From IMG/VR virus record IMGVR_UViG_2740892487_000005, positions 1 to 44,830 of that record: a stretch of DNA of 44,830 nt; one strand, written 5' to 3'. The notes below the pieces were generated by a model that saw nothing but the letters and a program-made list of their open reading frames with translations, was not told the origin of the DNA and made no database searches. Source of the DNA: a virus (taxonomy: Duplodnaviria > Heunggongvirae > Uroviricota > Caudoviricetes). The position numbers and the translations under genes are program-made. Each line of letters starts with the position of its first letter. Position 1 is the first letter of the stretch. Shown here one piece after another: positions 475-38,675 of the stretch.

Positions 475-490
475 GGCGTTAGGGGTTAAC
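455..490. other. Approximate host/prophage junction (attL region) between yecE remnant and integrase 3' end
   Basis: Host-like yecE reading frame ends about here and the integrase stop is at 486. Exact core not determinable without attR. Confidence 0.35.
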
Positions 491-1800
491 TTACTGATTT
501 TAATAATCCTCCAGTACTGCTCTCGTGGCTATGGGGCATCAATGGGGCAAAATCTGCCAGCTTCTGATTCAGCATTGCGATCTGCTCTGCGCTGCTGTCA
601 GCCATCCATGCACCGTAAACATTGAACACCATCTGCGCGCTCGCATGCCCCATCTGACTGGCAATAAAACTCGGGTTTGCACCAGCAGATAATGACCAGC
701 ACGCATAGGTATGTCGTGACTGGTACGCCTTTCTGTGTCTGATCCCCGCGCGCTTTAGTGCCGCTTCCCATGAGTCGCCTACTGAATCGACCCGGTAGAT
801 AAATCCGACCTGCTTACTGCGTCTGACCACATGCGGGTTAAAGACGAATGTACACTCATGGGTCACCGAACGACCGTACTCACGTAACTGCACTTCAATG
901 TGATATTGCCTGCCCAGCCTTGTCATTTCAGCCTGATTTTTCAGGATGCTGATTGCGGGCTGGATAAGATGCACCACTCGATCTGTGCTTGCCTCGGTTT
1001 TCGGTAGAGTGAACTCACCAAGTTTCGTATAATTACGCCTGACGGTAATTGTTCCCGCCTTCAGGTCGATATCTTCCCAGGCCAGGGAGACCAGTTCCCC
1101 GTGACGCATTCCTGTGTACACTGCTAATGACCACAGGTTTTTCGTCTGCTGATGCCGGCATGCATCTATCAGGCGAATAAATTCATCACGAGACAGAGGA
1201 TCTGGTTCTGCCCTGGCTTTTTTCAGAGGTTTAATTCCCTCGAATGGGTTCACCTCTAAGTAACCGTGATCCGCAGCAAACTGAAACATTCCGGCCATTG
1301 TCGTCATGTAATAGTTCACAGTAACAACGCTTCGCCCTTTTGCCGGGGCTTTATTTTTCGTCGGACTCTGATAACCAGTTAGCAAATCTTTCCTGAGATA
1401 CAGCAATTCCTCTTTGGTTACTGCTGACACCAGGCGATTACCTCCGATCCTCGGCACCATATTCCTTGCGACAGATTCATAGCGATTGAATGCGTTCGCG
1501 CAGATTTCCATCCGTTTCAGATCCAGCCATTTTTCTTCAAGTTCTTTCACTGTAATGTCTTTTTTTACTTACACCAAAAGCCTTGAGGTTAGGGGAGTCA
1601 GGAAACTGGGTTGCATAATCAAAGGTTCCTGTGCGGATGGCAAAACATACTGATGTCCGCAGTTCCCCGGCTATCTTTCTGTTCTTAGCGGTGTCAGGGA
1701 CACCGAGACTTTCCCTGACACGCTTACCTTTAAAATTAAACCAGATGCGTAATGTGCCACCGTGGTTTTCGACGCCTGTTGGATATGTGACTTTATCCAT
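486..1800 (-). CDS. int: Tyrosine integrase (lambda Int family with N-terminal arm-binding domain); split in this sequence by a single-base indel
   Basis: ORFs 1537..1800 (N-terminal arm-binding-like 87 aa) and 486..1550 (354-aa core and catalytic domain) are adjacent in different frames. Removing one T from the T7 run at 1560-1566 joins them into about 438 aa. Confidence 0.9.
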
Positions 1801-4020: not shown

Positions 4021-4106
4021 TGCTCCCGGAACTGTCGGTTAATTCGGTTGAAGGTGAACGCCAGCAATAAAAAAAGGCCGCTTTAGCGACCCGGTGATCA
4101 GTGCCT

Positions 4107-7016: not shown

Positions 7017-7301
7017 TTAAAATGGGCAGCCGGTACGGTGTTCCCAGTCGTATTCCGCCTGGGCGTAAGCAACTGCCGAAATGAAATCGTTGTAGGCCTC
7101 GCCAGCTTTATCGCTGCGAAGTCCTTCGTATGGACTGGCGTCAATCGGTACGGAGAAGTGGAAGAGGCCGGACGGCTCTTTTGGCATCATGTCGATGATT
7201 TGTTGCGCCCGGTCGTCGATCCACTTCTCTTTCTCGTCGGTGATCTGCTGCTCAGCCCAGCGCCGATCTTCGATGCGGTCGTAAGTGAGGTATGCGTTCA
7301 T
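7017..7301 (-). CDS. gam: Host-nuclease inhibitor Gam-like protein
   Basis: 94 aa beginning MNAYLTYDRIEDRRWAEQQ…, similar to the lambda Gam core; positioned after bet. Confidence 0.65.
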   Translation of the reverse strand: MNAYLTYDRIEDRRWAEQQITDEKEKWIDDRAQQIIDMMPKEPSGLFHFSVPIDASPYEGLRSDKAGEAYNDFISAVAYAQAEYDWEHRTGCPF

Positions 7302-7808
7302 AAATTCTCCGGTTTTCTTTCTTCATGAACGGCATGCTTGCCGTGCATTCGCTCTCTTGCTGCAACGACAACAGCCCTGGCCTCATTAAGGTCGGTGAAA
7401 TTGCCAAGGTGGTATTTTTTGCCGTCGATAGAGCAGCGCGCGTGCCAGCGTTTATCTTTCTTATTCCAATAAACGCCTTTGACGCCGCTTGTGTTGTTTT
7501 TTGGAGAGAGCTTATTTAGCTGATTAATGCAGTGAGGAACGTCCCTGAGGTTGCATAACCTGTTGTCAGTTCTGATGCCGTTTATGTGGTCTATTTCATG
7601 CTCAGGCCACGAACCATACGAATAAAGCCATGCCAGGCGATGGCATAAATATCTTTCGTGGTCGATAGATACTCGAAGATAACCCATAGGGTTTAACGAC
7701 CCAGCGATAGAGCCGGTAACCATGCCGCCGGCAGTTTTTTAGCCTGGTGAAAATCCCAGTCTCTGCGTCGTAGTGAAATAACTCCTTTAACCTCTGAATT
7801 GAAAGCAT
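7298..7808 (-). CDS. HNH endonuclease (AP2-domain type); split by an indel in this sequence
   Basis: N-terminal ORF 7602..7808 (MLSIQRLKELFHYDAETGIFTRLKN…) and C-terminal ORF 7298..7723 (…GYLRVSIDHERYLCHRLAW…KGVYWNKK…) join if one T is removed from the T6 run at 7735-7740. Confidence 0.75.
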
Positions 7809-9209: not shown

Positions 9210-9887
9210 TTATGGGATGTTTAGTATTTTGGCATCAACCACAACGCCGATGATTTTGCAGTTTCCATTAATTTCTAGCATTGGATATGCGGGGTTAAGG
9301 GGCTTTAGGAAGCGTCTGCCGGCATCGATTACAAGCTTCTTAAAGGTCGCTTCGTTATCGCCTTCTAGCTTCGCGACAACCAGCTTTCCGTTGCGCGGCT
9401 CGACTTCAGGATCAACAAGTATCGCTGCTCCCTCGGGTATGCTCAGTCCAGCCGGGGAGGTCATAGAATCCCCTTTAACGTCCAGCCAGAATGAATCTTC
9501 TGAGCAGTCAACAGTCGTGTCATACCAGCGATCTATCGCTCTTCGGTGATAAGGTTCTACAGCTTCCATCCATTGCCCCGCGCTTACCCAGCTGATTACA
9601 GGATAACTTCCTTTTGTCTCGTTCAGTCCTCGAAATGCAACGTTCGAAGGTTCTTCACTGGCGTGTAAAACATCCATCCAGCCAAAAGGCAGATCAAGCG
9701 CAGTTTCAATTTTGCGAGCCATCTTATCGCCGATATTGCGATGAGGGTTTGGTCCCAGTAGCTGGCTAAGCGCAGCCGGACTTGTCTCGATGAGCTCGGC
9801 AAACTGCGCTTTGGTCATTCCAGACTCGTGCTGACGCTTCTCGTACAGCGCTTCCAGGTTGGCTTTTCTGATTTCTTTATTTTCCAT
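9210..9887 (-). CDS. cI: CI-type repressor (N-terminal HTH, C-terminal S24 LexA-like peptidase domain)
   Basis: ORF 9210..10004; probable start at ATG 9887 (MENKEIRKANLEALYEKRQ…). Contains HTH and a GDSM…K self-cleavage-type domain. Divergent from cro across the operator region. Confidence 0.9.
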   Translation of the reverse strand: MENKEIRKANLEALYEKRQHESGMTKAQFAELIETSPAALSQLLGPNPHRNIGDKMARKIETALDLPFGWMDVLHASEEPSNVAFRGLNETKGSYPVISWVSAGQWMEAVEPYHRRAIDRWYDTTVDCSEDSFWLDVKGDSMTSPAGLSIPEGAAILVDPEVEPRNGKLVVAKLEGDNEATFKKLVIDAGRRFLKPLNPAYPMLEINGNCKIIGVVVDAKILNIP

Positions 9888-9904
9888 ACCTGCATTGTTA
9901 CTGC

Positions 9905-9971
9905 TTTTAGCAAAATGATAAATGTGCAAATTGCTAAATGATGCTTGCGTAGTATTTAGCATAACGCTAAA
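9905..9971. promoter_or_regulatory. Putative OR operators with PRM/PR between cI and cro
   Basis: Three sites related to TTTAGC-N5-GCTAAA, including a perfect palindrome TTTAGCataacGCTAAA at 9954-9970, in the 116-bp divergent intergenic region. Confidence 0.55.
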
Positions 9972-10003
9972 CTCCAAATCAAACGACTCACCCGGAGACA
10001 CCA

Positions 10004-10237
10004 ATGAGCACTGAACTACACCGCTGGCGCAAGGCCGCCACTACCGACGAATGGGCGCAGCTCGCAAAGTTGGCTAACACGACGCCAGGTTACCTGGACC
10101 AGATCGCCTACGGAAATCGCCGGGCATCTCCAGAAATGGCATCTGCTATCGAGAAAGGCACGAAGAATTTTCACCGCCAGGCTCCGGTCCTAAAAGAAAG
10201 CCTGGTATTCGCATCGCCGCGTGATACTGCGGCCTAA
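10004..10237 (+). CDS. cro: Cro-like transcriptional regulator (YdaS-type HTH)
   Basis: 77-aa ORF divergent from cI, first gene of the rightward operon. Confidence 0.7.
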   Translation: MSTELHRWRKAATTDEWAQLAKLANTTPGYLDQIAYGNRRASPEMASAIEKGTKNFHRQAPVLKESLVFASPRDTAA

Positions 10238-14265: not shown

Positions 14266-14766
14266 ATGATATTCGAATATATAAAGCAACATTCAGAGGT
14301 AATCATTTCCGGTTTTTCAGTCGCCGCGGCCATCGCCTCTGCCTGGGCTGCTATTGCAAGCAGGCAGACGGCAGCAAAAGCACTAAAAATCCAAAGCAGA
14401 ATGAGCCTGTATGAGCTTCTAAAATCCACTGCCGAAAAAGCTAATTCTTTCTCAAAGGGCAAGAGAGGTGCAGAGTGGGATTTCTATGACGCTGCCAATA
14501 TAGTTCGATGCCTTAACCTGGCAATGGAGAGCATAAAAGATCATACCGAAAATGATGACAAGCTTGATATAAGAGAGCTAAAACAATTCTTCTTAAGCCA
14601 ATTGAATATGGAGCTCTTTGAAGAGCTCAACTATCAAGTCGGACCGGATGCTTTCTTCCGGGGAGAGGAGCCCAACAGCATGAGCAGCGATATTTACGCG
14701 CAATGGATAAATGCTATTTCATTCTTTAACTTCATGGTTGTAACAGATGAGGATCTTGCTGATTAA
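14266..14766 (+). CDS. Hypothetical membrane-anchored protein (cargo gene in nin region)
   Basis: 166 aa with one N-terminal hydrophobic helix (SGFSVAAAIASAWAAIA); visibly AT-rich island between early genes and ninB. Confidence 0.6.
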   Translation: MIFEYIKQHSEVIISGFSVAAAIASAWAAIASRQTAAKALKIQSRMSLYELLKSTAEKANSFSKGKRGAEWDFYDAANIVRCLNLAMESIKDHTENDDKLDIRELKQFFLSQLNMELFEELNYQVGPDAFFRGEEPNSMSSDIYAQWINAISFFNFMVVTDEDLAD

Positions 14767-19545: not shown

Positions 19546-20287
19546 ATGCATCAACACATAGCAAACGCCACGTTTCAGGTCATCGCAGGTGACTCAAGTG
19601 GCAGTGGTTTTAGCTTCATCCGTGAAGATTTAGTTGTCACTAATTACCATGTTATAGAGTCATGCTTTAATCTAGAAACCAGAAGTCAAACCCATAGCAT
19701 CATCCTGAAAACGGAAGCTAATGAGCAAATTGCAGCTGGGATTGTCTACTTTGACCACGGTAATGATTTTGTCATCATGAAACTGCTTTCAGCACTGCCC
19801 ACAGGTAGAGTTGTTCTTCAGCCTTCCGTTGGTTTTTCACCCACCAGAGGCAAAAAAAATTATCTTTGCCGGTTATCCACACGGAATACCGCAGTTGCTG
19901 ACAAATGAAGCAATTATCTCAGCACCTATGGAGTTAGGCAGATTTGCAATTGATGGTATGGTCAATGGTGGTAATTCTGGCGGGCCAATTATAGATCGAG
20001 CCTCTGGCGAACTGGTGGGTGTCGTCACTCGGCGTAGATATCTTATGGGCGATCAAGCTGATGCTTTCAGTGAGGAGATTGAAAATTTGCGCCAATATCT
20101 TGCTGCAGCAAGCCAACATGGAAGTGTAGCAATAATGGGTGTCAATTTCGGCCAGATGGCAGATATGTTCGGTAGATCGCTACAGATAGTTTCAGATATG
20201 ATGTTGCTTAACGCTAATTCTGGCATCGGAATAGGATTCTCAATGCAGCCTATCATTGACGCCCTTAGCACCATCCCAACAGAATAA
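19546..20287 (+). CDS. Trypsin-like (S1/chymotrypsin-fold) serine protease, no signal peptide; split by an indel in this sequence
   Basis: ORFs 19546..19908 and 19811..20287 join when one A is removed from the A8 run at 19851-19858. Catalytic triad context TNYHV / DFVIMKL / GNSGGP. RBS GGAGAA before the ATG. Confidence 0.8.
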
Positions 20288-20366: not shown

Positions 20367-20801
20367 TTAATCTTTTATTACTTCAAATTCTATCGTATCC
20401 CCCAAGGACTCCGTCATTACAGCGCACTTTATGACTGTAGTGCGCGAATTGGCTTCATTATCTACGAGTGCCTTTCGGAATATCGCTGAAAACTTGCTGA
20501 TCACGTCATTTCTTTGATCTCTAAAATTCGATCCTTCAATACGGATCAAGCCTTTGATGGCCGTTTCTAAGTCTTCTAGCTTTTGCCAATAAGTGAATGG
20601 TCTTGCTGCATTCTCGCTAAAAGTCTCCAGTTCACTCAATTTCTTAAGCTTGCCGATGTCGACGCGAACAGCATCGGATATTTCTTTCGCTCTATGAGTA
20701 TTCCCAACTTTGTTTACAGAGTATGTAAGTAAAAAGTATTCATGCAGCATCATTTGTTCCATTAATGAGATTGATACTAAAAAATTGGGACAAAAAGTCA
20801 T
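20367..20801 (-). CDS. Hypothetical protein (131-144 aa), convergent partner of the protease gene
   Basis: AT-rich ORF with no family recognised; start may be the internal Met at 20762. Confidence 0.55.
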   Translation of the reverse strand: MTFCPNFLVSISLMEQMMLHEYFLLTYSVNKVGNTHRAKEISDAVRVDIGKLKKLSELETFSENAARPFTYWQKLEDLETAIKGLIRIEGSNFRDQRNDVISKFSAIFRKALVDNEANSRTTVIKCAVMTESLGDTIEFEVIKD

Positions 20802-20879: not shown

Positions 20880-21481
20880 ATGAGCAAACCGGACTGGGAG
20901 GCTATTGAATCGGCTTACCGGGCCGGAGTGATGTCCCTTCGCGAAATAGCATCGCAGCATGGCATCAGCGAAGGTGCTATCCGTAAGCGTGCCAAGCGTG
21001 ATGAATGGTCACGTGACCTCAACGCGAAGGTGAAAGAGCGCGCTGACGATCTGGTACGCAAAGCGAGGTACGCAAGCAGGTACGCAGCGAAACGGTACTT
21101 TCTGAGCGCGTACTAATCGAGGCCACTGCCGAGGTAATTGCCACAGTACGCATGGAGCACCGCGGCGACATCCGCCGGGCGAGGACTCTTGCGAACGCAC
21201 TGTTTGATGAGCTCGAGGCTGAGTGCGCAGACGTTGAGGCGCTGCGTACCTTGGGCCAAATGATGCTGTGTCCAGATGAGAACGGGCGTGACCGGCTGAA
21301 CGAGCTTTACCATGCCATCATCAGCATGCCCGAGCGCGTGAAGTCGATGAAAGCGCTGAGCGAGACGTTGAAGAATCTGATTGGCCTCGAGCGGCAGGCC
21401 TACAGCATGGACGAAGGCGAAAAAGATAAGGTCGTTGACGCGCTGTCTGACCTGATGGATTCGCTCTCTCAGGGGGCGTAA
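20880..21481 (+). CDS. Terminase small subunit; split by an indel in this sequence
   Basis: ORF 20880..21116 (HTH-type N-terminus MSKPDWEAIESAYRAGVMSLREIASQHGISEGAIRKRAKR) continues in ORF 21152..21481 after a one-base deletion near 21063-21066. Confidence 0.7.
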
Positions 21482-22952
21482 TGAAACCTGAGCACCTCAA
21501 GCTTCTGGCTGATAAAGACTGGCGGCTGAACAATCTCTACTGGATCACTGACAAAGAGGGTAAGCCCACGCGCTTCAGGATGACGCCTGAGCAGCGGGAA
21601 TATTTCGAGGGGATCCATACCCGCAACATCATCCTGAAAGCCCGGCAGCTCGGTTTCACCACCGAGGTGTGCATCATCCAGCTGGACGCGGCGCTGTTCG
21701 AGTCGGCGAAGTGCGCGCTGATTGCCCACACCCTGAACGACGCCAAGCGCCTGTTCCGTGAAAAGGTGAAGTACGCCTACGACAAGCTGCCCAAAGAAAT
21801 CAGGGCTGCGAACCCGGCAAGTAACGACTCTTCTGGTGAGCTGGTGTTTAAAAAGGGCGGATCGCTCTACGTCAGCACCTCATTTCGTGGTGGTACGCTG
21901 CGTTACCTGCATGTTTCCGAGTTCGGCAAGATATGCGCCAAGTATCCGGACAAAGCTCGTGAGATCGTCACTGGTGCGTTTGAAGCGGTGTCGACAGGAT
22001 GCTTCGCACTATTGAGAGTACGGCGGAGGGCCGGGCGGGATACTTCTTCGATTACTGCCAGACCGCCGAGAGAGCATTGCTTCAGGGCAAACCGCTATCC
22101 GCGCTGGACTGGAAGTTTTTCTTCTTCTCATGGTGGAAGAATCCGCAGTACGCAATCGACCCGTTAGAGCCGCTACCGCAGCGTCTGGTTGATTACTTCG
22201 CCGAGATGAAGGCTAAGCACGGAGTTGTCGTAAACAACCGCCAGAAGGCCTGGTACTACGCCAAAGAGAAAACGCTCGGCGACGACATGAAGCGCGAGTA
22301 CCCGACCATCCCGGCCGAGGCATTCCAGCAGTCGGTCGAAGGCGCGTACTACGCCAAGCAGTTCCGCTGGCTCTACACCAATAAGCGGATCGGCCAGATT
22401 CCGGATAACTCACACCTCCCGGTTCACACGTTCTGGGATATCGGCGTGGGCGACTCCACGGCTATCTGGTTCGTTCGTGAGGTTGGCGAAGAGTTCCACA
22501 TCATCGACTACTACGAAAACTCAGGCGAGGGCCTGCGGCACTACATGAAGGTGCTGAAAGACCGCGGGTATACCTACGGTGAGCACTGGGGGCCGCACGA
22601 TATCGAGAACCGCGAGTTTGCCGCTGATGCGAAATCCCGCAAAGAGCTGGCGCGCGAAGGTTACGAAATCGATGGTCAGATGTACTCGCTGAATTTCAAA
22701 GTGGTGCCGAAAGCCGGCATCGATACCGGCATCGAGTCGGCGCGTGAAATCCTCCCGAAATGCGTATTCGACGAGGAGAAATGCTCGGAAGGCATCTCTC
22801 ACCTTGAGGGCTACCGGAAAGAGTGGGACGACAAACGCGGCTGCTGGAAAGACAAACCTCTCCATGACGCCACCTCACACGGTGCTGACGGCTTCCGTTA
22901 CTTCGCAGTGACGAAGAACAACCGCAAGCAGGTCGGCGCAGTATTCTTCTAA
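21481..22952 (+). CDS. Terminase large subunit; split by an indel in this sequence
   Basis: N-terminal ATPase ORF 21481..22167 and C-terminal nuclease ORF 21999..22952 (…IESTAEGRAGYFFDY…) meet at about 21997-21999, where one base appears to be missing. Confidence 0.9.
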
Positions 22953-22964
22953 GGAGCATCGCCA

Positions 22965-24434
22965 GTGAGCGAACAAGATAACGGCCTCAAACTGGCTGTG
23001 AACAACCTCGCCACTGAAATGAGGCGAGCGAATTACCTGAATGCCATCGGCATTGGGGGCGGCAACACGAAGCGCCCGACGCTCTATCAGGAGTTTGGCT
23101 ACCCGCGCACGATCACGTTCAACGACTTCTACAACATGTACCGCCGCAATGCCGCCGGGTTCGCTGTGGTGCACCGCCTGCTGGATGGGTGCTGGCAGGA
23201 TTACCCGGTCATCATCGACGGTGACGAGACGGAAGAAGCGAAAGAGACCAATTCGTGGGAAAAGAAAGTCACCCGCTTCATGAAAAAGCTGTGGTCGAAG
23301 GTTAAAGACGCCGATCGCCGCAATATGGTTGGACGTTACTCCGCTCTGTTGTTGCAGGTGAAAGACAATAACCCCTGGAGCGAGCCAGTCGACATCAAGC
23401 TGGTGAAATCCCTCGGTGAGTCTGCGCTGGTGAAGCTGATCCCGGTATGGGAGCCGCAACTAACCGTCGCTGACTGGGATAACGACCGCCTCTCGTCCAC
23501 CTTCGGCCAGCCGTTGATGTTCAACTTCAACGAACAGCCGGTGGGCGATGACCAATTTGTCGGGCCGATGCGCGGTGAGCCTGTGCACCCAAGCCGGGTG
23601 ATCCTTTTCTGTGAAGGTTCAGAGGATGAAAATGTCCTGTCTGGCATCCCGCTGCTTGAGGCCGGCTATAACAAAGGACTGGACCTCGAAAAAAGTATCA
23701 GGTGGCGGAGCCGAGGGTTTCCTGAAGAACGCCAGCCGCCAGATCGCGGTTGAGTTCAGCAAAGATACGGACATGGCCACACTTGCCAGCCAGGCAAAGG
23801 CAGCTGGTTATGACGATCTCGGCAGGCGATGGGCGACAAGGTCAACAAACTGAACCGCGGGACCGACGCCGCCGCTGTCATGCAGGCCGGGCAGATGCGG
23901 GTGCTCAGCGTGACGCCGGGTGACCCGGGGCCGACGTGGGAGGTTACTGCGAACGAACTGGCCGCCTCCGTGCAGATCCCATTCACCATCCTGTTTGGGC
24001 AACAGACCGGACGCCTGGCGAGCGACGAGGACAAAACCGACTGGGCCATTCGGCGCAACACGCGACGTAACACTTTCCTGACCGACCGAATCACCGCGCT
24101 ACTCGAGCGCTTCTGGACGCTGGGCATCATTGACCCGCCAACAAATGGCGAAGTCACTATCCAGTGGAGCGATCTGCTGGCGCCCGGCGAGAAAGAGAAA
24201 ATCGAGAACATGTCCAAGCTGGCTGATGTCGTCCAGAAAACAACTGGCATGTATGGCGGTGAAGCGCCGTTGACTATCAACGAACTGCGACAGGTAATCG
24301 GGCTTGAGCCATTACCTGAGCCCAAAGAACCGCCGAACCCGGACGATAAGGTGACAACCGATGATCCACTGGCCGATGACACCCGAACAGAAGGAGAAGG
24401 TGGGCCTGCCGATAGTTCCGCGCAGCAAGGTTGA
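22965..24434 (+). CDS. Portal protein (DUF1073/HI1409-like); split by two indels in this sequence
   Basis: Three consecutive ORFs (22965..23753, 23611..23853, 23829..24434) read as one protein if one A is removed from the A6 run at 23689-23694 and one base is added near 23826-23830. GTG start after AAGGAG. Confidence 0.75.
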
Positions 24435-25359
24435 CCCGACGCGATCGGCAAAACAGGTCAGCGCGATGTTCCGGGATATCGAAGAGCGTTATCTCGGCAT
24501 TAAGCGCGCCATTAAAGTCCTGTTCGACCAGCGCCTGACCGGGCGAGAGCGAGATGTTAACAGCCACAACTGGCACTTCCTGTGTCACGTCAACGGTGAA
24601 GATCAGAGGCTCTACCAGGTCAACGCTGGGAAGTTCATCTACGACATGACGCCGCAGGAACTGGCGGAGCTGCTGGAGGCTGTGCAGGGCATCCTGGATG
24701 ACTATCTGCTGGACGGTGGGGAGAACAATCAGTGGGCGATGGATTACATCGTCGCTGAGGCGCAGCGCGGCACGCTGGAGGCGTTTAACAACCTATCGCA
24801 GCAGTCGCAGGTATACGCCAACCAGACGACGCTACAGCAGCTTTTAAGCAGCCCCGGTTATCAAAACCAGATTGCCTCCGCCAGGCTGACAACGTTCAGC
24901 GACTGGAAGGCTATTAGCGATGCCGCCCGGGCAGACCTGACAGGCATTATCGCCGACGCGGTGGCACGTGGGGTTAACCCGAGGGAAACGGCCAGCGTTA
25001 TCAGTAAGCGCCTTGACGTGTCGATGAGCCGGGCAAAGTCGATTGCCCAGACCGAGCAGGTCGGCGCGCTGCGGCAGGCGCAATGGAACGAAACGGACTG
25101 GGCCGCTGACCGGCTGGGGCTGAATACCGGCCTGCTGTGGCTGTCAGCGCTCAAGCCCACAACCCGCAGCTGGCACGCCAGCCGTCATGGCAGGGTCTAC
25201 ACCACCGAAGAGGTGCGCGACTTCTACGCCGTGAACGGCAACCGGTACAACTGCTACTGCAGCCAGATTCCGGTGCTGCTCAACGACGACGGCAGCATAT
25301 TCAACGAAGGGCTGGCGGATAAGCTTGCTAAAGAGCGCAAGCAGTGGTCCGCTCAGTAG
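24361..25359 (+). CDS. Head morphogenesis protein (SPP1 gp7 / Mu F-like minor head protein)
   Basis: 332 aa with the Mu F-like C-terminal region (…WLSALKPTTRSWHASRHGRVYT…), downstream of the portal. Confidence 0.75.
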   Translation: MIHWPMTPEQKEKVGLPIVPRSKVDPTRSAKQVSAMFRDIEERYLGIKRAIKVLFDQRLTGRERDVNSHNWHFLCHVNGEDQRLYQVNAGKFIYDMTPQELAELLEAVQGILDDYLLDGGENNQWAMDYIVAEAQRGTLEAFNNLSQQSQVYANQTTLQQLLSSPGYQNQIASARLTTFSDWKAISDAARADLTGIIADAVARGVNPRETASVISKRLDVSMSRAKSIAQTEQVGALRQAQWNETDWAADRLGLNTGLLWLSALKPTTRSWHASRHGRVYTTEEVRDFYAVNGNRYNCYCSQIPVLLNDDGSIFNEGLADKLAKERKQWSAQ

Positions 25360-25416
25360 ACATTTCCGTATTAAATATATATAAATCAGCATTAAAATTT
25401 TTACGGATGGAAAATA

Positions 25417-25857
25417 ATGCGGAAGATTTTGTCTTGGATCGGAGGGCTCATCGCAGTAACGTCGGGAGTGGTTACGCTTGTTGCTTTCTTTCTTCCACAG
25501 TACGTACCAGTGCAAACCAGATTAGCAATTGGGCGATTTATTGAGTTTATGAAGGTAAACCCATATGGCACTCTTATTACGATTGTGTGCTTGGTACTTT
25601 TAGCTGTAGTTTGGATATTAAGCAGTAAGGTGATAGAGCTTACTAAAGGAACCAAGCTATTCGCCATGTGCGGATTGTACTGGAGCAAAGACAACCAGCC
25701 TTTTTGCCCAAAGTGTAAAGAACCAGCTTCAGTGCATGACGATGATGAGTCTTATCGCTGTAATTCATGCGGGAGAATTATTTTCCCCAGTGGCGAGTCG
25801 AAACAAATATCCATCACGGAAGCTTTGCAAATAGTAAATTCAAAAAGAGGTCGCTAA
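25417..25857 (+). CDS. Membrane protein with two TM helices and a C-terminal 4-Cys zinc ribbon (cargo gene)
   Basis: 146 aa; TM helices near residues 8-30 and 50-70; CPKC…CNSC motif. AT-rich island with its own RBS and terminator inside the head module. Confidence 0.65.
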   Translation: MRKILSWIGGLIAVTSGVVTLVAFFLPQYVPVQTRLAIGRFIEFMKVNPYGTLITIVCLVLLAVVWILSSKVIELTKGTKLFAMCGLYWSKDNQPFCPKCKEPASVHDDDESYRCNSCGRIIFPSGESKQISITEALQIVNSKRGR

Positions 25858-25870
25858 GGCGGCCTTTTTT
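25848..25870 (+). terminator. Intrinsic terminator after the cargo gene
   Basis: 7-bp stem (one G-U pair) with 4-nt loop followed by T6. Confidence 0.55.
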
Positions 25871-25902
25871 TATTGCCTGAACCCCACCAATGAGGACCCA
25901 GC

Positions 25903-27291
25903 ATGAAACGCAACCGCGTTAACGTGCTGACCGTCGTCAACTCCGCTTCAAACATCACCACTGAAACCATCGACGGCAAGCCACATATCGTGGTTCGCGG
26001 CATCACGCCTGTCGTGGACGATATTGTGATGAACCGGAAGTTGTACCCGGCAGCAGAAATCGAAAAGGCCTACAACACGCTTGAGCGTAACCCGATGCCG
26101 CTGGGCCACCCGAAAGTGGACGGCAAGCACGTTTCGGCGCGCGATGTCCGGGCGGTTAATAACTATCACGTCGGGGCTTGGCTGCAGAACGTCAGCCACA
26201 AAGACGGCAAGGTGACGGGTGACATGTACGTGAACCGCCAGTACGCCGAATCCAGTGAGAAGGGCAAGCGCCTCATCAACCGCCTGGACGAGATGCTGGC
26301 TGGCACCAACTCCGACCCGATCCACATCTCCACCGGACTGCTGTATTCCGGTATTGCCGCTAACGGCGAGTCGAAGGGCAAAAAGTACAACGAGATCGCC
26401 ACCAACATGATGTTCGACCATGTTGCGGTCCTGCTCGATGAGCCGGGCGCCGGAACGCCGGATGAAGGGGTGGGCATCTTCGTGAATGCCGAGGGGGATG
26501 AGCAGGAGATCGAAGTGGCTAACCTGGCCGACGCCGCCGACTGCACCCGCGAAGGCATGCTCAACAAAACCCGTTTCTTCTTCACCAACGCCTCCAATTT
26601 TTCCTTCGACGATATCCAGCTCGCCATCAGCGACAAGTTGCGCGAGGGTGCGGGCGAAGATAAGTGGCTCTGGCCGGAGACGGTGTGGCCCGACAATTTC
26701 ATCTACCGGGACGAAACCAGATACCTGAAGCAAAAGTACCTCATCGATGATGCCGGTAAGGCCGTATTCGTCGGAGAGCCTGTAGAAGTCGTGCGCAAAC
26801 CAACTGAGTACGAGATTAAAACCAACGGAGAGAACGATCCGATGAAAGAACTGATTATCAATGCGCTGCAAGCCGCTGGTAAGCCGACCGAAGGCAAGTC
26901 CGACGCTGAGCTGATGGACGCATACAACCAGCTGGCAGCAGAGAAGGCGGCCGCCAAAACCGAAACGCCCGAAGAGAAGGCGACTCGCGAAAAGGCTGAG
27001 AAAGAAGGGCGTGAGCGCGCCAACAACCAGGCAGAAGCCCCGGCATGGTTTAAGCCATTCGCCGACGATCTCGCTGCGGTTAAATCTGGCCTGACCGTTA
27101 ACGCCGATAAGGAGAAAGGCGAAAAGCGCGCAGCTGTGAAGCTGGCGATGAACATGAGCGATGACGAAGTCGCGGATCTGGACGGTAAGGCGCTCGACGC
27201 CATGTACGCCAAGTGCCAGACCTCCATCGGCCTGAATGGTTCATTCCGACAGGCTACCAATAACCAGTCAGTCAGCGAAATGCCGGAGTAA
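25903..27291 (+). CDS. Capsid scaffolding/assembly protein (DUF2213-like)
   Basis: 462 aa with an acidic, Ala/Lys/Glu-rich C-terminal half, between the head morphogenesis and capsid genes. Confidence 0.55.
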   Translation: MKRNRVNVLTVVNSASNITTETIDGKPHIVVRGITPVVDDIVMNRKLYPAAEIEKAYNTLERNPMPLGHPKVDGKHVSARDVRAVNNYHVGAWLQNVSHKDGKVTGDMYVNRQYAESSEKGKRLINRLDEMLAGTNSDPIHISTGLLYSGIAANGESKGKKYNEIATNMMFDHVAVLLDEPGAGTPDEGVGIFVNAEGDEQEIEVANLADAADCTREGMLNKTRFFFTNASNFSFDDIQLAISDKLREGAGEDKWLWPETVWPDNFIYRDETRYLKQKYLIDDAGKAVFVGEPVEVVRKPTEYEIKTNGENDPMKELIINALQAAGKPTEGKSDAELMDAYNQLAAEKAAAKTETPEEKATREKAEKEGRERANNQAEAPAWFKPFADDLAAVKSGLTVNADKEKGEKRAAVKLAMNMSDDEVADLDGKALDAMYAKCQTSIGLNGSFRQATNNQSVSEMPE

Positions 27292-27296
27292 AAAAA

Positions 27297-27729
27297 ATGG
27301 CTAAAGACGGAAAGCACGTAATTCACGCGGGCGGCATTTTCCCAAACCCGCTTCTCAATCGCGAAGGCGCGGCGGCTGCGGCGACCAAGCCCGGCACCAT
27401 CGGTTTCTTCGCCGCCGGCAAGTTCACCGCCTCCGTAGACGGTAATGAACAGGCGATCCTCTATGTCGCTGATTACGACTATCTGCGCTGTCAGACCGTC
27501 GACGATGCGATCCCGGTCGGCGAGCTGGTGGTGGGTATCCATCCGCTGGAAGGTATGTTCCTGAACGTGCGCGCGGCGGCGGGCACCTACAAAAAAAGGC
27601 CAGCCTCTGACCATTGCCAGCGGCCAGGTTAAAGCCGCCGGTACAACCGATAACGTCCGCGCCTACGTCGAAGAAGACGTCGCTTACACCGTGGTGGCAG
27701 GCGACCTGCTGCGCGTCGTAATTAAGTAA
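27297..27729 (+). CDS. Head decoration-like protein (DUF2190-like); split by an indel in this sequence
   Basis: ORF 27297..27632 continues to the stop at 27727-27729 if one A is removed from the A7 run at 27591-27597 (…GTYKKGQPLTIASGQVKAAGTTDNVRAYVEEDVAYTVVAGDLLRVVIK*). Confidence 0.5.
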
Positions 27730-27740
27730 GGAGCACCTGA

Positions 27741-28822
27741 ATGCTTGTATTTTCCCGCTCTATCGGTGAACGCACCGGTAACCTCGAAGTCAACCAGGCG
27801 CAGTTCCGCGAACTGGAGATGGCGCGCAACATGAGTGCGCAGTCTGTCGCTGACTTCATCGCCCGTGCTCGCTTCGGCGAAAACGGACATCTGGATGCCG
27901 TGAACGCCGTGGACGACATCCGCCGTATGTACCGCGCATACGATCAGACCGTGCTGGCGCAGTTCGAACCGAATACCGAGTTCACTCTGTTCAACGACCT
28001 GATGCCGCTGTCCCGCTCTGTTCGCCTGGAAGAGTCCGTGTATGAATATGCGCGTACCGGCGGCCGTGGCTGGGCTCATACCTCCATGTCAGGCCAGATT
28101 GGCGCGGCGCTGGATGCTCGCGCGTACAGCTTCGACGGTACGATGGTGCCGGTGCATGACAGTGGCTTTAAGTTCCACTGGCGTGACCCGATCTTCAACA
28201 AAGGTTCTGCACTGGCATCCCTGGCTGATGCGCAGCGCGGCTCTGTTGATGACGTGCGCCGCAAAATCGTCGACTACATGTTCAACGGCTTCCGCGATTC
28301 AGAAGGCAACTTCGTGACCTTCGACGGCAAGACCTGGAAAGGGTTGAAGAATGACGATCGCGTAGCTCAGGTTGACCTCGGCGCTTCCGGTCTGAACATC
28401 AACTTCGCTACCAGCACTGATCCGGAAGCGATGCGTAACGGGGCGATTAAGCTGCGCGATACGCTGAAACTTCAGAACAACCAGTACGGCCAGCAGACTG
28501 GTACGTTTCCAGCGAAATCATGTCCAACTGGGAGCAGTACTACGACACCCAGAACAAGACCCGCACGGTACTGGAAGAGATCCTGAAACTGTCTGGTATT
28601 GCCGCGGTGAAAGAGGATGCTGAACTGACCGGAAACCAGATCCTGATTGTTCCGCTGGCTGCGGGTGTTATCGCACCAGTTGTTGGTCAGGCCGTTGGTA
28701 CCGTGGCAGATCCGCGCCAGTTCTATAACAGCGACTATGTATGGCGCACCTGGGGTGCTGCTGGCCTGATGGTCAAGCAGGACATCAATCTCAAACACGG
28801 CGTTCTGTACGCTCACAGCTAA
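27741..28822 (+). CDS. Major capsid protein; split by an indel in this sequence
   Basis: ORFs 27741..28586 and 28520..28822 join with a one-base correction at the T3 run 28506-28508. Strong RBS AAGGAG; size about 360 aa. Confidence 0.8.
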
Positions 28823-33212: not shown

Positions 33213-33545
33213 ATGAGCGAACAAGAGCAACTTCAGCGTTTGAGTGAAGAGGTGGCCAGAGCATACCTGCGCCACCTGGAATCAACCACTGGCGGAAATA
33301 AAGTTACTTACGATGGCGTGACAAGATCAATTACCCTCGAAGAACTAGTTTTTGGTCTCATAGGGGTCGCGCACTTCAATGCGAAAAACCATCCAGATGA
33401 CGAGATACTAAAAGACCCATATAAACATCTCTCGCACATGATTGATATTTTATCAAAGCCGTATGTGATAACTGAGTTTGGTCTAAAAGTTATTGAACAT
33501 ATGAATGAAATTTCCATTCATAAACAGCGCGGGGTGTTGATGTGA
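33213..33545 (+). CDS. Hypothetical protein (110 aa)
   Basis: Middle gene of the cargo cassette. Confidence 0.5.
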   Translation: MSEQEQLQRLSEEVARAYLRHLESTTGGNKVTYDGVTRSITLEELVFGLIGVAHFNAKNHPDDEILKDPYKHLSHMIDILSKPYVITEFGLKVIEHMNEISIHKQRGVLM

Positions 33546-33919
33546 AAACGGGTGCAATGTGCTTATCTTTGCTGATTTTAATTTCTGGTTGCGATGATGG
33601 CGGAAAAGGAAGTGTATCTAACGGCGCTGATACAGCTATAACAATGTTCAAATCATCTATGAGTGAGGGGGATCATCCACCCTTCAACTATCAGCGTCTC
33701 GTATTCAAACCAGATCAGCAAAACTCAAGCAAGGTAATAAGTGGGTGGGTTTGCGGAGATGGAAGCATGAAGCGTGATGATAAGACCTTTAACTTTAAAG
33801 TTAGAGGTCATGTTATTAAGTCAGAAGATATTTCATACGTTGGTGACATAGCCGCACTGCTTTCTGATACTGAAATGGTCAAATACGACATTCTTTACAA
33901 TAAGAATTGCAAAGAATAA
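33542..33919 (+). CDS. Hypothetical lipoprotein
   Basis: Lipobox …LLILISGC… at the N-terminus. Confidence 0.55.
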   Translation: MKTGAMCLSLLILISGCDDGGKGSVSNGADTAITMFKSSMSEGDHPPFNYQRLVFKPDQQNSSKVISGWVCGDGSMKRDDKTFNFKVRGHVIKSEDISYVGDIAALLSDTEMVKYDILYNKNCKE

Positions 33920-38470: not shown

Positions 38471-38642
38471 ATGGAAAAAGTAACGCTGTCCGTAAAATTT
38501 GATACCACATCATTAGATGAGGCAATCGAGAAGGTCAGGACCTTAAAAAAAAGAACTAAGGGAGCTTGGCTTGCCTTACTTCACCGGCAATCCTCTGGCT
38601 GGATACCAGCCACAACAAGAAGAAAAAGCCACCAACCAGTAA
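38471..38642 (+). CDS. Hypothetical small protein (about 56 aa), partner of the metallopeptidase-like gene; frameshifted in this sequence
   Basis: Removing one A from the A8 run at 38545-38552 gives MEKVTLSVKFDTTSLDEAIEKVRTLKKELRELGLPYFTGNPLAGYQPQQEEKATNQ*, ending exactly at a strong terminator. Confidence 0.4.
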
Positions 38643-38664
38643 GCCGCTTGAAGCGGCTTTTTTT
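38641..38664 (+). terminator. Intrinsic terminator
   Basis: Perfect 7-bp stem AAGCCGC/GCGGCTT with 5-nt loop followed by T7. Confidence 0.8.
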
Positions 38665-38675
38665 ATGAGGCGCCC

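What the first reader, a model, noticed from the sequence alone, without database searches (positions are those of the whole stretch)
25360..25875. Membrane zinc-ribbon protein as an AT-rich single-gene insertion inside the head module
25417..25857 encodes a 146-aa protein with two predicted TM helices and a C-terminal CPKC…CNSC zinc ribbon, with its own RBS and terminator. It lies between the head morphogenesis gene and the scaffold gene in a visibly AT-rich island. Membrane proteins with cytoplasmic zinc ribbons are not part of capsid assembly, so this is a candidate superinfection-exclusion or abortive-infection factor expressed from the prophage.
Basis: partly seen in the sequence, partly recalled or inferred. 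Interest (0 to 1): 0.55.

Follow-up and report, generated by a model that had tools for sequence, protein, structure and literature searches.

The report
Orphan membrane zinc-ribbon gene in prophage hotspot
A rare small gene for a membrane-anchored zinc-binding protein sits as optional cargo in a swap-in slot of a prophage's head-gene operon; in relatives the same slot is empty or holds other accessory genes, including a known phage-exclusion protease, so it is a credible but untested candidate for defence against other phages.

Summary
25417..25857(+) is a real 146-aa gene under purifying selection (dN/dS 0.04-0.17). It has two hydrophobic helices and an invariant CPKC...CNSC zinc ribbon, in a 0.42-GC island between a Mu-F-like minor head gene and a DUF2213 gene.

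It is not a head-assembly gene. Among 34 Enterobacterales relatives the slot is empty (16-42 bp) in 8. In the others it carries at least 18 unrelated AT-rich cargo families. E. coli relatives hold a Lit exclusion protease and a T6SS immunity gene there; HNH endonucleases also occur.

One 59%-identical copy lies in a prophage early region. It kept the slot terminator and a 5-codon stub of the DUF2213 gene, which shows cassette mobility.

The terminator is not the gene's own: it is shared by the slot whatever the cargo. A promoter-like TAGACA-N17-TATAAA travels with the gene.

The protein matches no Pfam, PHROG, PADLOC or PDB family. It belongs to an undescribed family of about 140-aa proteins (two TM helices plus G-x-Y-W-D...NPxCPxC...CxxC), with no conserved partner gene. 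Charge distribution places the zinc ribbon in the cytoplasm.

An exclusion or abortive-infection role is plausible from context only. No experiment or homology supports it.

The parts
24361..25359 (+). Left flank: Mu-F-like minor head (head morphogenesis) gene. Its TAG stop codon is the first three bases of the promoter-like -35 hexamer.
   Evidence: PF04233 E = 2.6e-10; phrog_758 E = 3.5e-143.
25360..25875 (.). AT-rich cargo island that fills the variable slot between the two head genes.
   Evidence: GC 0.41-0.45 against 0.56-0.65 in the flanks. Slot 543 bp, GC 0.416, against 0.582 for the flanks.
25357..25385 (+). Promoter-like motif TAGACA-N17-TATAAA, with candidate -35 and -10 hexamers. 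Unverified.
   Evidence: The only match in the 44.8-kb window, with 0 expected by chance. Both hexamers are invariant in 7 cassettes, including the 59%-identical copy in another module, while the spacer differs. The consensus scan does not call it, because the -10 hexamer lacks T at position 6.
25405..25410 (+). Shine-Dalgarno-like GGATGG, 6 nt upstream of the ATG.
   Evidence: Read from the sequence. The block is conserved in all cassettes.
25417..25857 (+). Coding sequence of the 146-aa membrane zinc-ribbon protein.
   Evidence: ORF. dN/dS 0.04-0.17 in pairs of orthologues. Orthologues are 59-96% identical.
25426..25494 (+). Predicted TM helix 1, residues about 4-26.
   Evidence: Kyte-Doolittle peak 2.26. 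AlphaFold helix 2-25.
25564..25626 (+). Predicted TM helix 2, residues about 50-70, followed by a basic juxtamembrane stretch.
   Evidence: Kyte-Doolittle peak 2.64. AlphaFold helix 51-77. The positive-inside count holds in 49 of 50 family members.
25660..25785 (+). Family signature domain, residues 82-123: a beta-hairpin with CGLYW (G-x-Y-W-[DN] in the wider family), then a C4 zinc ribbon CPKC...CNSC.
   Evidence: Invariant columns. pLDDT about 96 with beta strands at 82-89, 103-106, 113-115 and 121-122. Only sub-threshold hits to generic Zn-ribbon Pfam families.
25813..25848 (+). C-terminal helix, residues 133-144, conserved in the wider family.
   Evidence: AlphaFold helix 133-144. Conserved A/helix column in alignment A5.
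25842..25871 (+). Intrinsic-terminator hairpin plus T7 tract. It belongs to the slot rather than to the cargo. The last two codons and the stop codon (GGT CGC TAA) lie in its left arm and loop.
   Evidence: -17.4 kcal/mol, z = -3.62. The same hairpin occurs with unrelated cargo in relatives. A second exact copy lies at 4070..4091(-).
25903..27291 (+). Right flank: DUF2213 head-module gene in the scaffold position.
   Evidence: PF09979 E = 7.5e-5; phrog_760 E = 9e-193.

Best explanation
The gene is accessory cargo (a 'moron') docked in a recombination hotspot of the head operon, between the Mu-F-like gene and the DUF2213 gene.

Slot layout: [head gene] - [cargo with its own promoter-like signal] - [shared terminator] - [next head gene]. 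The shared terminator would insulate the downstream head genes when the cargo is transcribed alone. Late antiterminated transcription would read through it.

The product is inferred to be a small inner-membrane protein with the N terminus inside the cell, two TM helices, a short periplasmic loop and a cytoplasmic C4 zinc-ribbon domain held close to the membrane. It acts alone, without a dedicated partner gene.

The most likely role is in conflict with other phages at the inner membrane. There are two options:
(a) It blocks genome entry, in the manner of P22 SieA or HK97 gp15.
(b) The zinc-ribbon domain recognises a phage component and the TM helices then damage the membrane, as an abortive infection in the manner of Rip1.

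Shown here: gene reality, cargo status, mobility, slot architecture and family architecture. Inferred: topology, zinc binding, expression in the lysogen and any anti-phage activity.
For: Real gene: dN/dS 0.04-0.17.

Optional cargo:
- Phage relatives carry unrelated ORFs of 74, 104, 162 and 223 aa in the same slot.
- Of 34 species-level relatives, 8 have an empty slot of 16-42 bp. The other 26 hold AT-rich inserts of 209-936 bp; counted over all non-ZR relatives examined, the cargo falls into at least 18 unrelated families.
- The closest head modules (L030, L048) carry other cargo. The zinc-ribbon gene is 95-96% identical between loci whose flanks are only 70-88% identical.

Mobility: the 59% homologue lies between the ERF/SSB and Dam/integrase genes. 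It kept TAGACA-N17-TATAAG upstream. Downstream it kept the slot terminator plus the ribosome-binding site and first 5 codons (MKRNR) of the DUF2213 gene.

Slot terminator: shared by different cargo and stable.

Defence-type company:
- Lit sits in the same slot in E. coli M10 (PADLOC Lit E = 8e-42; Peptidase_U49 E = 5e-16).
- Distant homologues lie next to GmrSD_N plus AAA_15/DUF3696, and next to a SEFIR/TIR protein.

Architecture:
- Two hydrophobic helices and a basic juxtamembrane segment. K+R density is 0.24 inside against 0.11 in the loop, and 49 of 50 members have more K+R inside.
- Confident model of the zinc-ribbon domain.

Stand-alone gene: no recurring neighbour in 22 distinct family groups.

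Precedents for small defence morons inside late operons: Tab (PMC10884400), Rip1 (review PMC13434031) and the inner-membrane exclusion protein SieA (PMC10883804).
Against: - No similarity to any known defence or exclusion protein by sequence (PADLOC, PHROGs, Pfam, NCBIfam) or by fold.
- The hotspot also holds cargo that is not anti-phage: a Rap1a T6SS immunity gene and HNH endonucleases.
- In metagenomes most neighbours of the wider family are housekeeping genes, with only a handful of PADLOC hits among 93 neighbours.
- That wider family was not found in IMG/VR with the motif used.
- The -10 hexamer lacks the usual final T, and the scanner calls no promoter.
- The gene is co-oriented with the late operon, so it could equally act during lytic growth.
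Confidence: 0.45

Rival explanations
1. It is a moron that benefits the lysogen in a way unrelated to phage defence. Examples would be modulating an inner-membrane process, envelope stress or zinc handling, or inter-bacterial competition. The wider family would then have a general cellular role that the phage merely borrowed.
For: - The same slot carries a T6SS immunity gene.
- Wider-family members mostly sit among housekeeping genes, with no conserved partner.
- The wider family was not detected in IMG/VR by the motif scan.
- There is no match to a defence family.
Against: - No homology to any characterised physiological family either.
- The enterobacterial subfamily was found only in prophage or viral contexts.
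- Even family members that are at least 80% identical have different neighbours, which is typical of mobile or variable regions.
Confidence: 0.25
2. It is an accessory factor for the phage's own lytic cycle, expressed with the late operon. Possible roles are tuning lysis timing, tethering an assembly or packaging step to the membrane, or excluding sibling genomes late in infection.
For: - Same orientation as the late operon, inside it.
- It is a small two-TM protein, a class that includes holins and antiholins. This comparison rests on general knowledge and was not tested.
- The promoter call is weak.
Against: - It is dispensable: the slot is empty or holds other cargo in close relatives.
- It is not in the lysis cassette, which in a related E. 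coli prophage (L005) lies upstream of the terminase gene; the window's own lysis genes were not mapped.
- It also works as a cassette in an early region of another prophage.
- A conserved promoter-like block travels with it.
Confidence: 0.15
3. It is a component of head assembly, such as a membrane-associated assembly chaperone.
For: Position between two head genes only.
Against: - 8 of 34 relatives have 16-42 bp between the two genes.
- The others hold at least 18 unrelated cargo families.
- None of the 34 species representatives has this gene.
- A homologue sits outside any head module.
Confidence: 0.02
4. It is not a functional gene: a chance ORF in AT-rich junk, or a decaying remnant.
For: - PGAP does not annotate it in four RefSeq E. 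coli genomes.
- It is very rare: 5 clusters in 5.8 billion proteins.
Against: - Intact in every copy, with dN/dS 0.04-0.17 even where dS is saturated.
- 67 invariant residues, including all zinc ligands.
- A recognisable wider family with the same architecture.
- A confident fold prediction.
Confidence: 0.03

Closest known systems
Phage morons in late operons that protect the lysogen (HK97 gp15; Pseudomonas JBD26 Tab)
   Same: A small single gene added between conserved late genes, absent from close relatives, of different base composition and followed by a terminator. Tab is an 83-residue moron between the terminase genes that gives defence when expressed from the prophage (PMC10884400). HK97 gp15 is cited there as a moron-encoded exclusion protein.
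   Different: No sequence similarity to either. Neither Tab nor gp15 is known to me to have a zinc ribbon (my own knowledge, not tested here). The anti-phage activity of the present gene is untested.
P22 SieA and other inner-membrane superinfection-exclusion proteins
   Same: A prophage-encoded inner-membrane protein that acts alone. SieA blocks DNA delivery across the inner membrane (PMC10883804). The conserved periplasmic loop of the enterobacterial subfamily would suit an interaction with an entry apparatus.
   Different: No homology. The present protein has a conserved cytoplasmic zinc-ribbon domain. A block of DNA entry has not been tested.
Rip1 (ring-interacting pore 1)
   Same: A moron inside the packaging/head region of prophages. 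One small protein combines an N-terminal membrane-active helical part with a C-terminal domain that recognises a phage protein (review PMC13434031).
Lit (e14) phage-exclusion protease
   Same: Occupies exactly the same slot, between the Mu-F-like gene and the DUF2213 gene, in the related prophage of E. coli M10. This shows that the slot can carry an abortive-infection gene.
   Different: An unrelated protein: a 291-aa Peptidase_U49 metalloprotease with no TM/zinc-ribbon architecture.
Defence hotspots of P2-like phages and P4-like satellites
   Same: A fixed position between conserved phage genes where many unrelated accessory or defence genes alternate (title and abstract of PMC9122126).
   Different: A different phage group and a different position, inside the head operon. 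Here the cargo shares a conserved terminator. Most cargo is uncharacterised, and only Lit is a known defence gene.
Generic C4 zinc ribbons (Pfam Zn_ribbon_NUD, Zn_Ribbon_TF, DZR, PriA CRR; ribosomal eL43/eL37-type)
   Same: Two CxxC knuckles on beta-hairpins. These are the best, though insignificant, sequence and fold matches.
   Different: All hits fall below the curated cut-offs. The G-x-Y-W-D...N-P-x-C-P-x-C signature and the two-TM anchor define a separate family that none of the libraries searched describes.

Membership tests
Phage moron (accessory cassette in a late operon) | Present in some genomes and absent from otherwise similar relatives | tested here: met
   The slot is empty in 8 of 34 relatives and holds other cargo in the rest. 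Phage relatives carry other ORFs there.
Phage moron (accessory cassette in a late operon) | Base composition differs from the surrounding genes | tested here: met
   Gene GC 0.39-0.43 against 0.50-0.58 in the flanks, in all seven loci examined.
Phage moron (accessory cassette in a late operon) | Followed by a transcription terminator | tested here: met
   Hairpin at -17.4 kcal/mol plus a T7 tract. It is a terminator shared by the slot, not one specific to the gene.
Phage moron (accessory cassette in a late operon) | Own promoter | tested here: inconclusive
   TAGACA-N17-TATAAA is unique in the window and conserved with the gene, even in another module. The consensus scan finds no sigma-70 site.
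Phage moron (accessory cassette in a late operon) | Expressed from the repressed prophage | not testable with these tools
   Needs transcript data from a lysogen.
C4 zinc ribbon | Two CxxC knuckles with conserved spacing on beta-hairpins | tested here: met
   C97, C115 and C118 are invariant and C100 is at least 90% conserved in 31 diverse members. Beta strands flank both knuckles, at pLDDT about 96.
C4 zinc ribbon | Match to a curated zinc-ribbon family above its threshold | tested here: not met
   The best hit is Zn_ribbon_NUD at 18.1 bits against a cut-off of 24.8. All others are lower.
C4 zinc ribbon | Binds zinc | not testable with these tools
   Needs metal analysis of purified protein.
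Inner-membrane superinfection-exclusion proteins (SieA, HK97 gp15, T4 Imm type) | Integral inner-membrane protein encoded by a prophage | tested here: met
   Two hydrophobic helices. The window has an integrase and a CI-type repressor. Membrane location is predicted only.
Inner-membrane superinfection-exclusion proteins (SieA, HK97 gp15, T4 Imm type) | Homology to a known exclusion protein | tested here: not met
   No PHROG, PADLOC or phage tblastn match.
Inner-membrane superinfection-exclusion proteins (SieA, HK97 gp15, T4 Imm type) | Blocks genome entry of superinfecting phage | not testable with these tools
   Needs infection assays.
Rip1-like sensor-pore abortive-infection proteins | Sequence or fold homology to Rip1 | tested here: not met
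Rip1-like sensor-pore abortive-infection proteins | Phage-triggered membrane permeabilisation | not testable with these tools
   Needs infection and membrane-integrity assays.
Head-assembly gene of this phage group | Conserved at this position in related head modules | tested here: not met
   Absent from all 34 species-level relatives. The two flanking genes abut directly in 8 of them.
Undescribed 'two-TM + GxYWD zinc-ribbon' family (defined here) | A TM helix ending about 8-18 residues before G-x-Y-W-[DN], then N/Q-P-x-C-P-x-C, a second CxxC and a C-terminal helix; total length about 130-175 aa | tested here: met
   The profile search gave 56 hits at E <= 1e-3, almost all with this layout. 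The window protein carries CGLYWSKDNQPFCPKC...CNSC.
Holin (class II, two TM) | Located in the lysis cassette next to the endolysin and spanin genes | tested here: not met
   The gene lies between head genes. In the related E. coli prophage the lysozyme and Rz1-like genes lie upstream of the terminase gene.

The most novel reading that the evidence does not exclude
The protein founds a new single-gene, membrane-anchored anti-phage family found across many bacteria. In this reading a cytoplasmic zinc-ribbon domain pressed against the inner membrane senses an incoming phage genome or an early or late phage protein. The two TM helices then close the entry route or open a lethal pore. The slot between the Mu-F-like gene and the DUF2213 gene, with its shared terminator, would be a previously unrecognised defence hotspot of Enterobacterales siphophage prophages, holding about 20 further uncharacterised candidate systems.
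Probability: 0.3. Interest if true: 0.7.

Novelty: new member of a known kind. Interest (0 to 1): 0.45.

Why it matters
If the protein excludes phages, it would add a new architecture to the list of one-protein prophage defences: two TM helices plus a juxtamembrane cytoplasmic zinc ribbon.

The slot itself would become a cheap discovery resource. It is a precisely bounded position with a shared terminator. One known abortive-infection gene (Lit) sits there, alongside roughly twenty unrelated cargo families of unknown function. Those families can be cloned and screened in the same way as the P2/P4 hotspots.

The gene is also missed by the standard annotation pipeline in four complete E. coli genomes, so this class of cargo is under-counted in databases.

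The copy that carried a stub of the neighbouring head gene into an early region is a clean example of how such cassettes move between phage modules.

Tried and rejected
- Family libraries. Pfam, PHROGs, NCBIfam and PADLOC scans of the protein and of 31 family members gave only sub-threshold generic zinc-ribbon hits.
- Phage records. tblastn against 50,697 phage records found no match.
- Structure prediction. A 31-sequence alignment gave pLDDT 89.
- PDB sequence profiles. Nothing beyond generic zinc fingers.
- Extra homologue searches. With a narrower alignment it found none in IMG/VR.
- Conserved partner gene. I looked for one around 26 loci in 22 distinct family groups and found none.
- Neighbour annotation. 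Pfam and PADLOC annotation of 93 neighbours showed no coherent defence-island signal. I therefore do not claim defence-island enrichment.
- Promoter and terminator scan. The consensus scan returned nothing in 24800-26400. The terminator was confirmed instead by folding.
- RNA genes. Rfam and ARAGORN found no RNA gene in the island.
- Overlapping ORFs. The antisense 97-aa ORF (25401..25694) and the +2-frame 66-aa ORF were treated as by-products of the AT-rich coding frame. The purifying-selection signal is in the 146-aa frame.

Full report
**1. What is in the sequence**

The ORF 25417..25857(+) starts with ATG and encodes 146 aa. It lies in a stretch of 0.41-0.45 GC, flanked by sequence of 0.56-0.65 GC.

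- Upstream, 24361..25359 encodes a Mu-F-like minor head protein (PF04233, E = 2.6e-10; phrog_758 'head morphogenesis', E = 3.5e-143).
- Downstream, 25903..27291 encodes a DUF2213 / phrog_760 protein.
- The window is a temperate prophage. It has a tyrosine integrase (486..1550, minus strand) and a CI-type HTH/S24 repressor (9210..10004, minus strand).
- An SD-like GGATGG lies 6 nt before the ATG.
- The stop codon lies in the loop of a hairpin followed by seven T. The hairpin (25842..25871) folds at -17.4 kcal/mol, z = -3.6, and none of 200 shuffles is as stable. The simple consensus scanner found no promoter or terminator here, so the terminator call rests on the fold.

**2. It is a real gene**

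The word-indexed search of 5.8 billion proteins found only five clusters, at 95, 84, 84, 81 and 59% identity. All are 146-147 aa long.

Megablast of the cassette DNA found it at 95% nucleotide identity in four of 5,426 complete E. coli genomes. The ORF was read and is intact in one of them, and two that were inspected lack an annotation for it.

Pairwise dN/dS among seven orthologues is 0.04-0.17, including pairs where synonymous sites are saturated. There are 67 invariant residues. They include C58, C85 and the four ribbon cysteines C97, C100, C115 and C118.

**3. Architecture**

Two segments exceed the Kyte-Doolittle 19-residue threshold, with peaks of 2.26 (residues 8-26) and 2.64 (residues 51-69).

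An AlphaFold model built on six close sequences was poor (pLDDT 59.6). With a 31-sequence alignment of the wider family it reached pLDDT 89, and about 96 over the C-terminal domain. The model has:
- helices at 2-25, 32-47 and 51-77;
- short beta strands around the CGLYW motif and both CxxC knuckles;
- a helix at 133-144.

In 50 family members, K+R density is 0.24 in the N terminus plus the segment after TM2, against 0.11 in the loop between the helices. In 49 of the 50 there are more K+R residues inside. This supports a topology with both termini inside and a cytoplasmic zinc ribbon, which also suits a Cys4 metal site. No dedicated TM predictor was available.

**4. The slot is a hotspot and the gene is optional cargo**

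Related Klebsiella, Enterobacter and Cronobacter phages share the flanking genes at 83-88% nucleotide identity (Cronobacter 73%), and the four Klebsiella relatives examined differ in between. The slot holds unrelated ORFs of 74, 104 and 162 aa, or a 223-aa HNH endonuclease.

In E. coli relatives the same slot holds:
- a Lit-family exclusion protease (strain M10; PADLOC Lit E = 8e-42; Peptidase_U49 E = 5e-16);
- a Rap1a T6SS immunity gene on the opposite strand (strain GN25; E = 1.4e-16);
- a 170-aa protein with an N-terminal TM helix (strain MB20).

A scan of one genome per species returned 34 loci from Klebsiella, Enterobacter, Citrobacter, Leclercia, Cedecea, Pantoea, Erwinia, Yersinia and others.
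- The distance from the Mu-F-like stop to the DUF2213 start is 16-42 bp in eight of them, which is an empty site.
- It is 209-936 bp in the other 26, always less GC-rich than the flanks.
- Across all non-ZR relatives examined (these loci plus L001-L004 and L028-L030), the largest ORFs fall into at least 18 unrelated clusters.
- None of the 34 carries the zinc-ribbon gene.

Head assembly therefore does not need a gene here.

**5. The cassette moves**

The zinc-ribbon protein is 95-96% identical between loci whose Mu-F-like and DUF2213 proteins are only 70-88% identical. The head modules closest to the window (L030, L048) carry other cargo.

The 59% homologue (L007) is not in a head module at all. 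It lies between the ERF/SSB genes and the DUF4060/Dam/integrase genes. Its DNA still carries three things:
- upstream, TAGACA-N17-TATAAG;
- downstream, the slot hairpin;
- then ATTGCCTG...GAGACACAGTATGAAGCGTAACAGG, which is the ribosome-binding site and the first five codons (MKRNR) of a DUF2213 gene, followed by a stop two codons later.

That copy therefore came from a head slot together with its flanks.

**6. Signals**

The hairpin GGTCGC-N4-GCGGCC-T6 followed by ATTGCC sits 33-53 nt before the DUF2213 start in more than 30 loci with different cargo. It belongs to the slot. The last codons of the zinc-ribbon gene (GGT CGC TAA) are supplied by it.

The same module occurs a second time in the window at 4070..4091 (minus strand), in the early-left operon. 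It also occurs at a further AT-rich insertion about 4.5 kb downstream in four relatives. It looks like a portable boundary element.

On the left, TAGACA (its TAG is the stop of the Mu-F-like gene), a 17-nt spacer and TATAAA form the only such match in the window, with 0 expected by chance. Both hexamers are invariant in all seven cassettes while the spacer diverges in L007. This is a phylogenetic footprint of a regulatory signal. However, the -10 hexamer lacks the usual final T, so promoter activity is unproven.

**7. The wider family**

A profile search of 1.84 billion representatives gave 56 hits at E <= 1e-3. Apart from a few zinc-finger false positives, they are proteins of 113-182 aa with the same layout: one or two N-terminal hydrophobic helices, a basic segment, then K-L-x2-K-x-G-[VIL]-Y-W-D-x3-N-P-x-C-P-x-C-K-x-P-L ... 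[FY]-x-C-x2-C and a short C-terminal helix.

No Pfam or PADLOC model covers them.

Two members with long contigs sit in defence-like islands:
- integrase, GmrSD_N, AAA_15/21 + DUF3696, the family member, a Y1 transposase, Fic;
- the family member, a 212-aa protein, a SEFIR/TIR protein, an antitoxin.

A further 31 metagenome loci gave mixed neighbourhoods. These included squalene-hopene cyclase, an aminotransferase, RNase E/G and Maf, together with RadC, DnaB_C, an integrase and a few helicase-type PADLOC hits. No neighbour family recurs across 22 distinct groups. The family is a stand-alone gene, often in variable regions, but I cannot claim defence-island enrichment.

The motif scan found none in IMG/VR. 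The enterobacterial subfamily is in five IMG/VR contigs.

**8. Comparison with known systems**

The nearest analogues are functional, not homologous:
- small defence morons inside late operons, namely Tab (PMC10884400) and Rip1 (review PMC13434031);
- the inner-membrane exclusion protein SieA (PMC10883804);
- hotspots of alternating defence cargo in P2/P4 elements (PMC9122126).

**9. Interpretation**

Firmly supported: this is an optional, horizontally exchanged cargo gene in a defined hotspot of the head operon. It encodes a small membrane-anchored protein with a cytoplasmic zinc ribbon and belongs to an undescribed family.

Probable but untested: it is transcribed from its own promoter in the lysogen, and it acts in phage-phage conflict at the inner membrane, either by excluding DNA entry or by triggering membrane damage. 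I put that at about 0.45.

The rivals are:
- a lysogen-fitness role unrelated to phages (about 0.25);
- a dispensable lytic-cycle accessory (about 0.15);
- a head-assembly role or a non-functional ORF, which are effectively excluded.

**10. Verdict**

Its structural reading (an insertion that is not a capsid gene) is confirmed. Its functional guess remains a reasonable hypothesis.

Morons in late operons are a known kind, so the finding is not surprising in principle. The value lies in a cleanly delimited hotspot, a new protein family and a ready experiment.

Noticed in passing
window 4070..4091 (- strand); also L037 8593-8614, L039 8576-8597, L061 8445-8466, L063 9110-9131: The slot terminator module (GGTCGC-TAAA-GCGGCC-T7-ATTGC) occurs a second time in the window, after a 63-aa ORF in the early-left operon. 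It also occurs at another AT-rich insertion about 4.5 kb downstream of the DUF2213 start in four relatives. It looks like a portable boundary element that marks several cargo slots, and it may serve as a recombination linker.
   Followed up: partly
window 22007, 23694, 23823, 27597, 28497: Single-base indels relative to a close relative (L097) split several genes: the large terminase (21481..22167 / 21999..22952), the portal (22965..23753 / 23829..24434), the small gene after DUF2213 (27297..27632) and the major capsid gene (27741..28586). The two insertions (23694, 27597) lie in A-runs. This is either a defective prophage in which the cargo gene stays intact, or homopolymer sequencing errors.
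   Followed up: partly
L014 5005-5117 and the equivalent stretch in L019: In two cassette lineages a tRNA-like element is inserted between the zinc-ribbon stop codon and the terminator; the whole extra segment is about 150 nt. It matches the Rfam tRNA model at 27.8 bits (gathering score 29), with a 54-nt insertion in the anticodon region. ARAGORN does not call it.
   Followed up: partly
L005 6078-6518 and L006 (E. coli O22:H8 strain 154 and GB089, RefSeq): In the two RefSeq complete E. coli genomes inspected, the 146-aa ORF (read as intact in L005) has no annotation from the NCBI pipeline; the table shows a 540-bp gap between the 'phage minor head protein' and the DUF2213 gene. Two further genomes match the cassette DNA but were not inspected.
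   Followed up: yes
L030 2978-3487, L052, L054, L056, L060 (same slot): A recurrent 170-171-aa cargo protein with an N-terminal TM helix and a conserved EKWWEKKH motif occupies the slot in five different species. It has no Pfam or PADLOC match and is another candidate accessory function.
   Followed up: partly
window 20367..20801 (-), 14266..14766 (+), 33213..33545 and 33542..33919 (+), 38471..38668 (+): Further AT-rich orphan ORFs (GC 0.39-0.44) with no Pfam or PADLOC match. One lies on the opposite strand between the lysis and terminase regions. Two lie just upstream of the tape-measure gene. They are probably additional cargo slots of this prophage.
   Followed up: partly
window 19811..20287 (+): A 158-aa ORF in an AT-rich stretch matches only the C-terminal part of a trypsin-like peptidase (Trypsin_2, E = 1.6e-6). 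It also hits the protease part of PADLOC RT-Protease_XI weakly. It may be a gene fragment.
   Followed up: no
window 7298..7723 (-): An HNH_3 + AP2 homing-endonuclease-type gene in the early region. HNH endonucleases also occupy the head slot in relatives (L004, L036, L040). They could drive cargo turnover.
   Followed up: no
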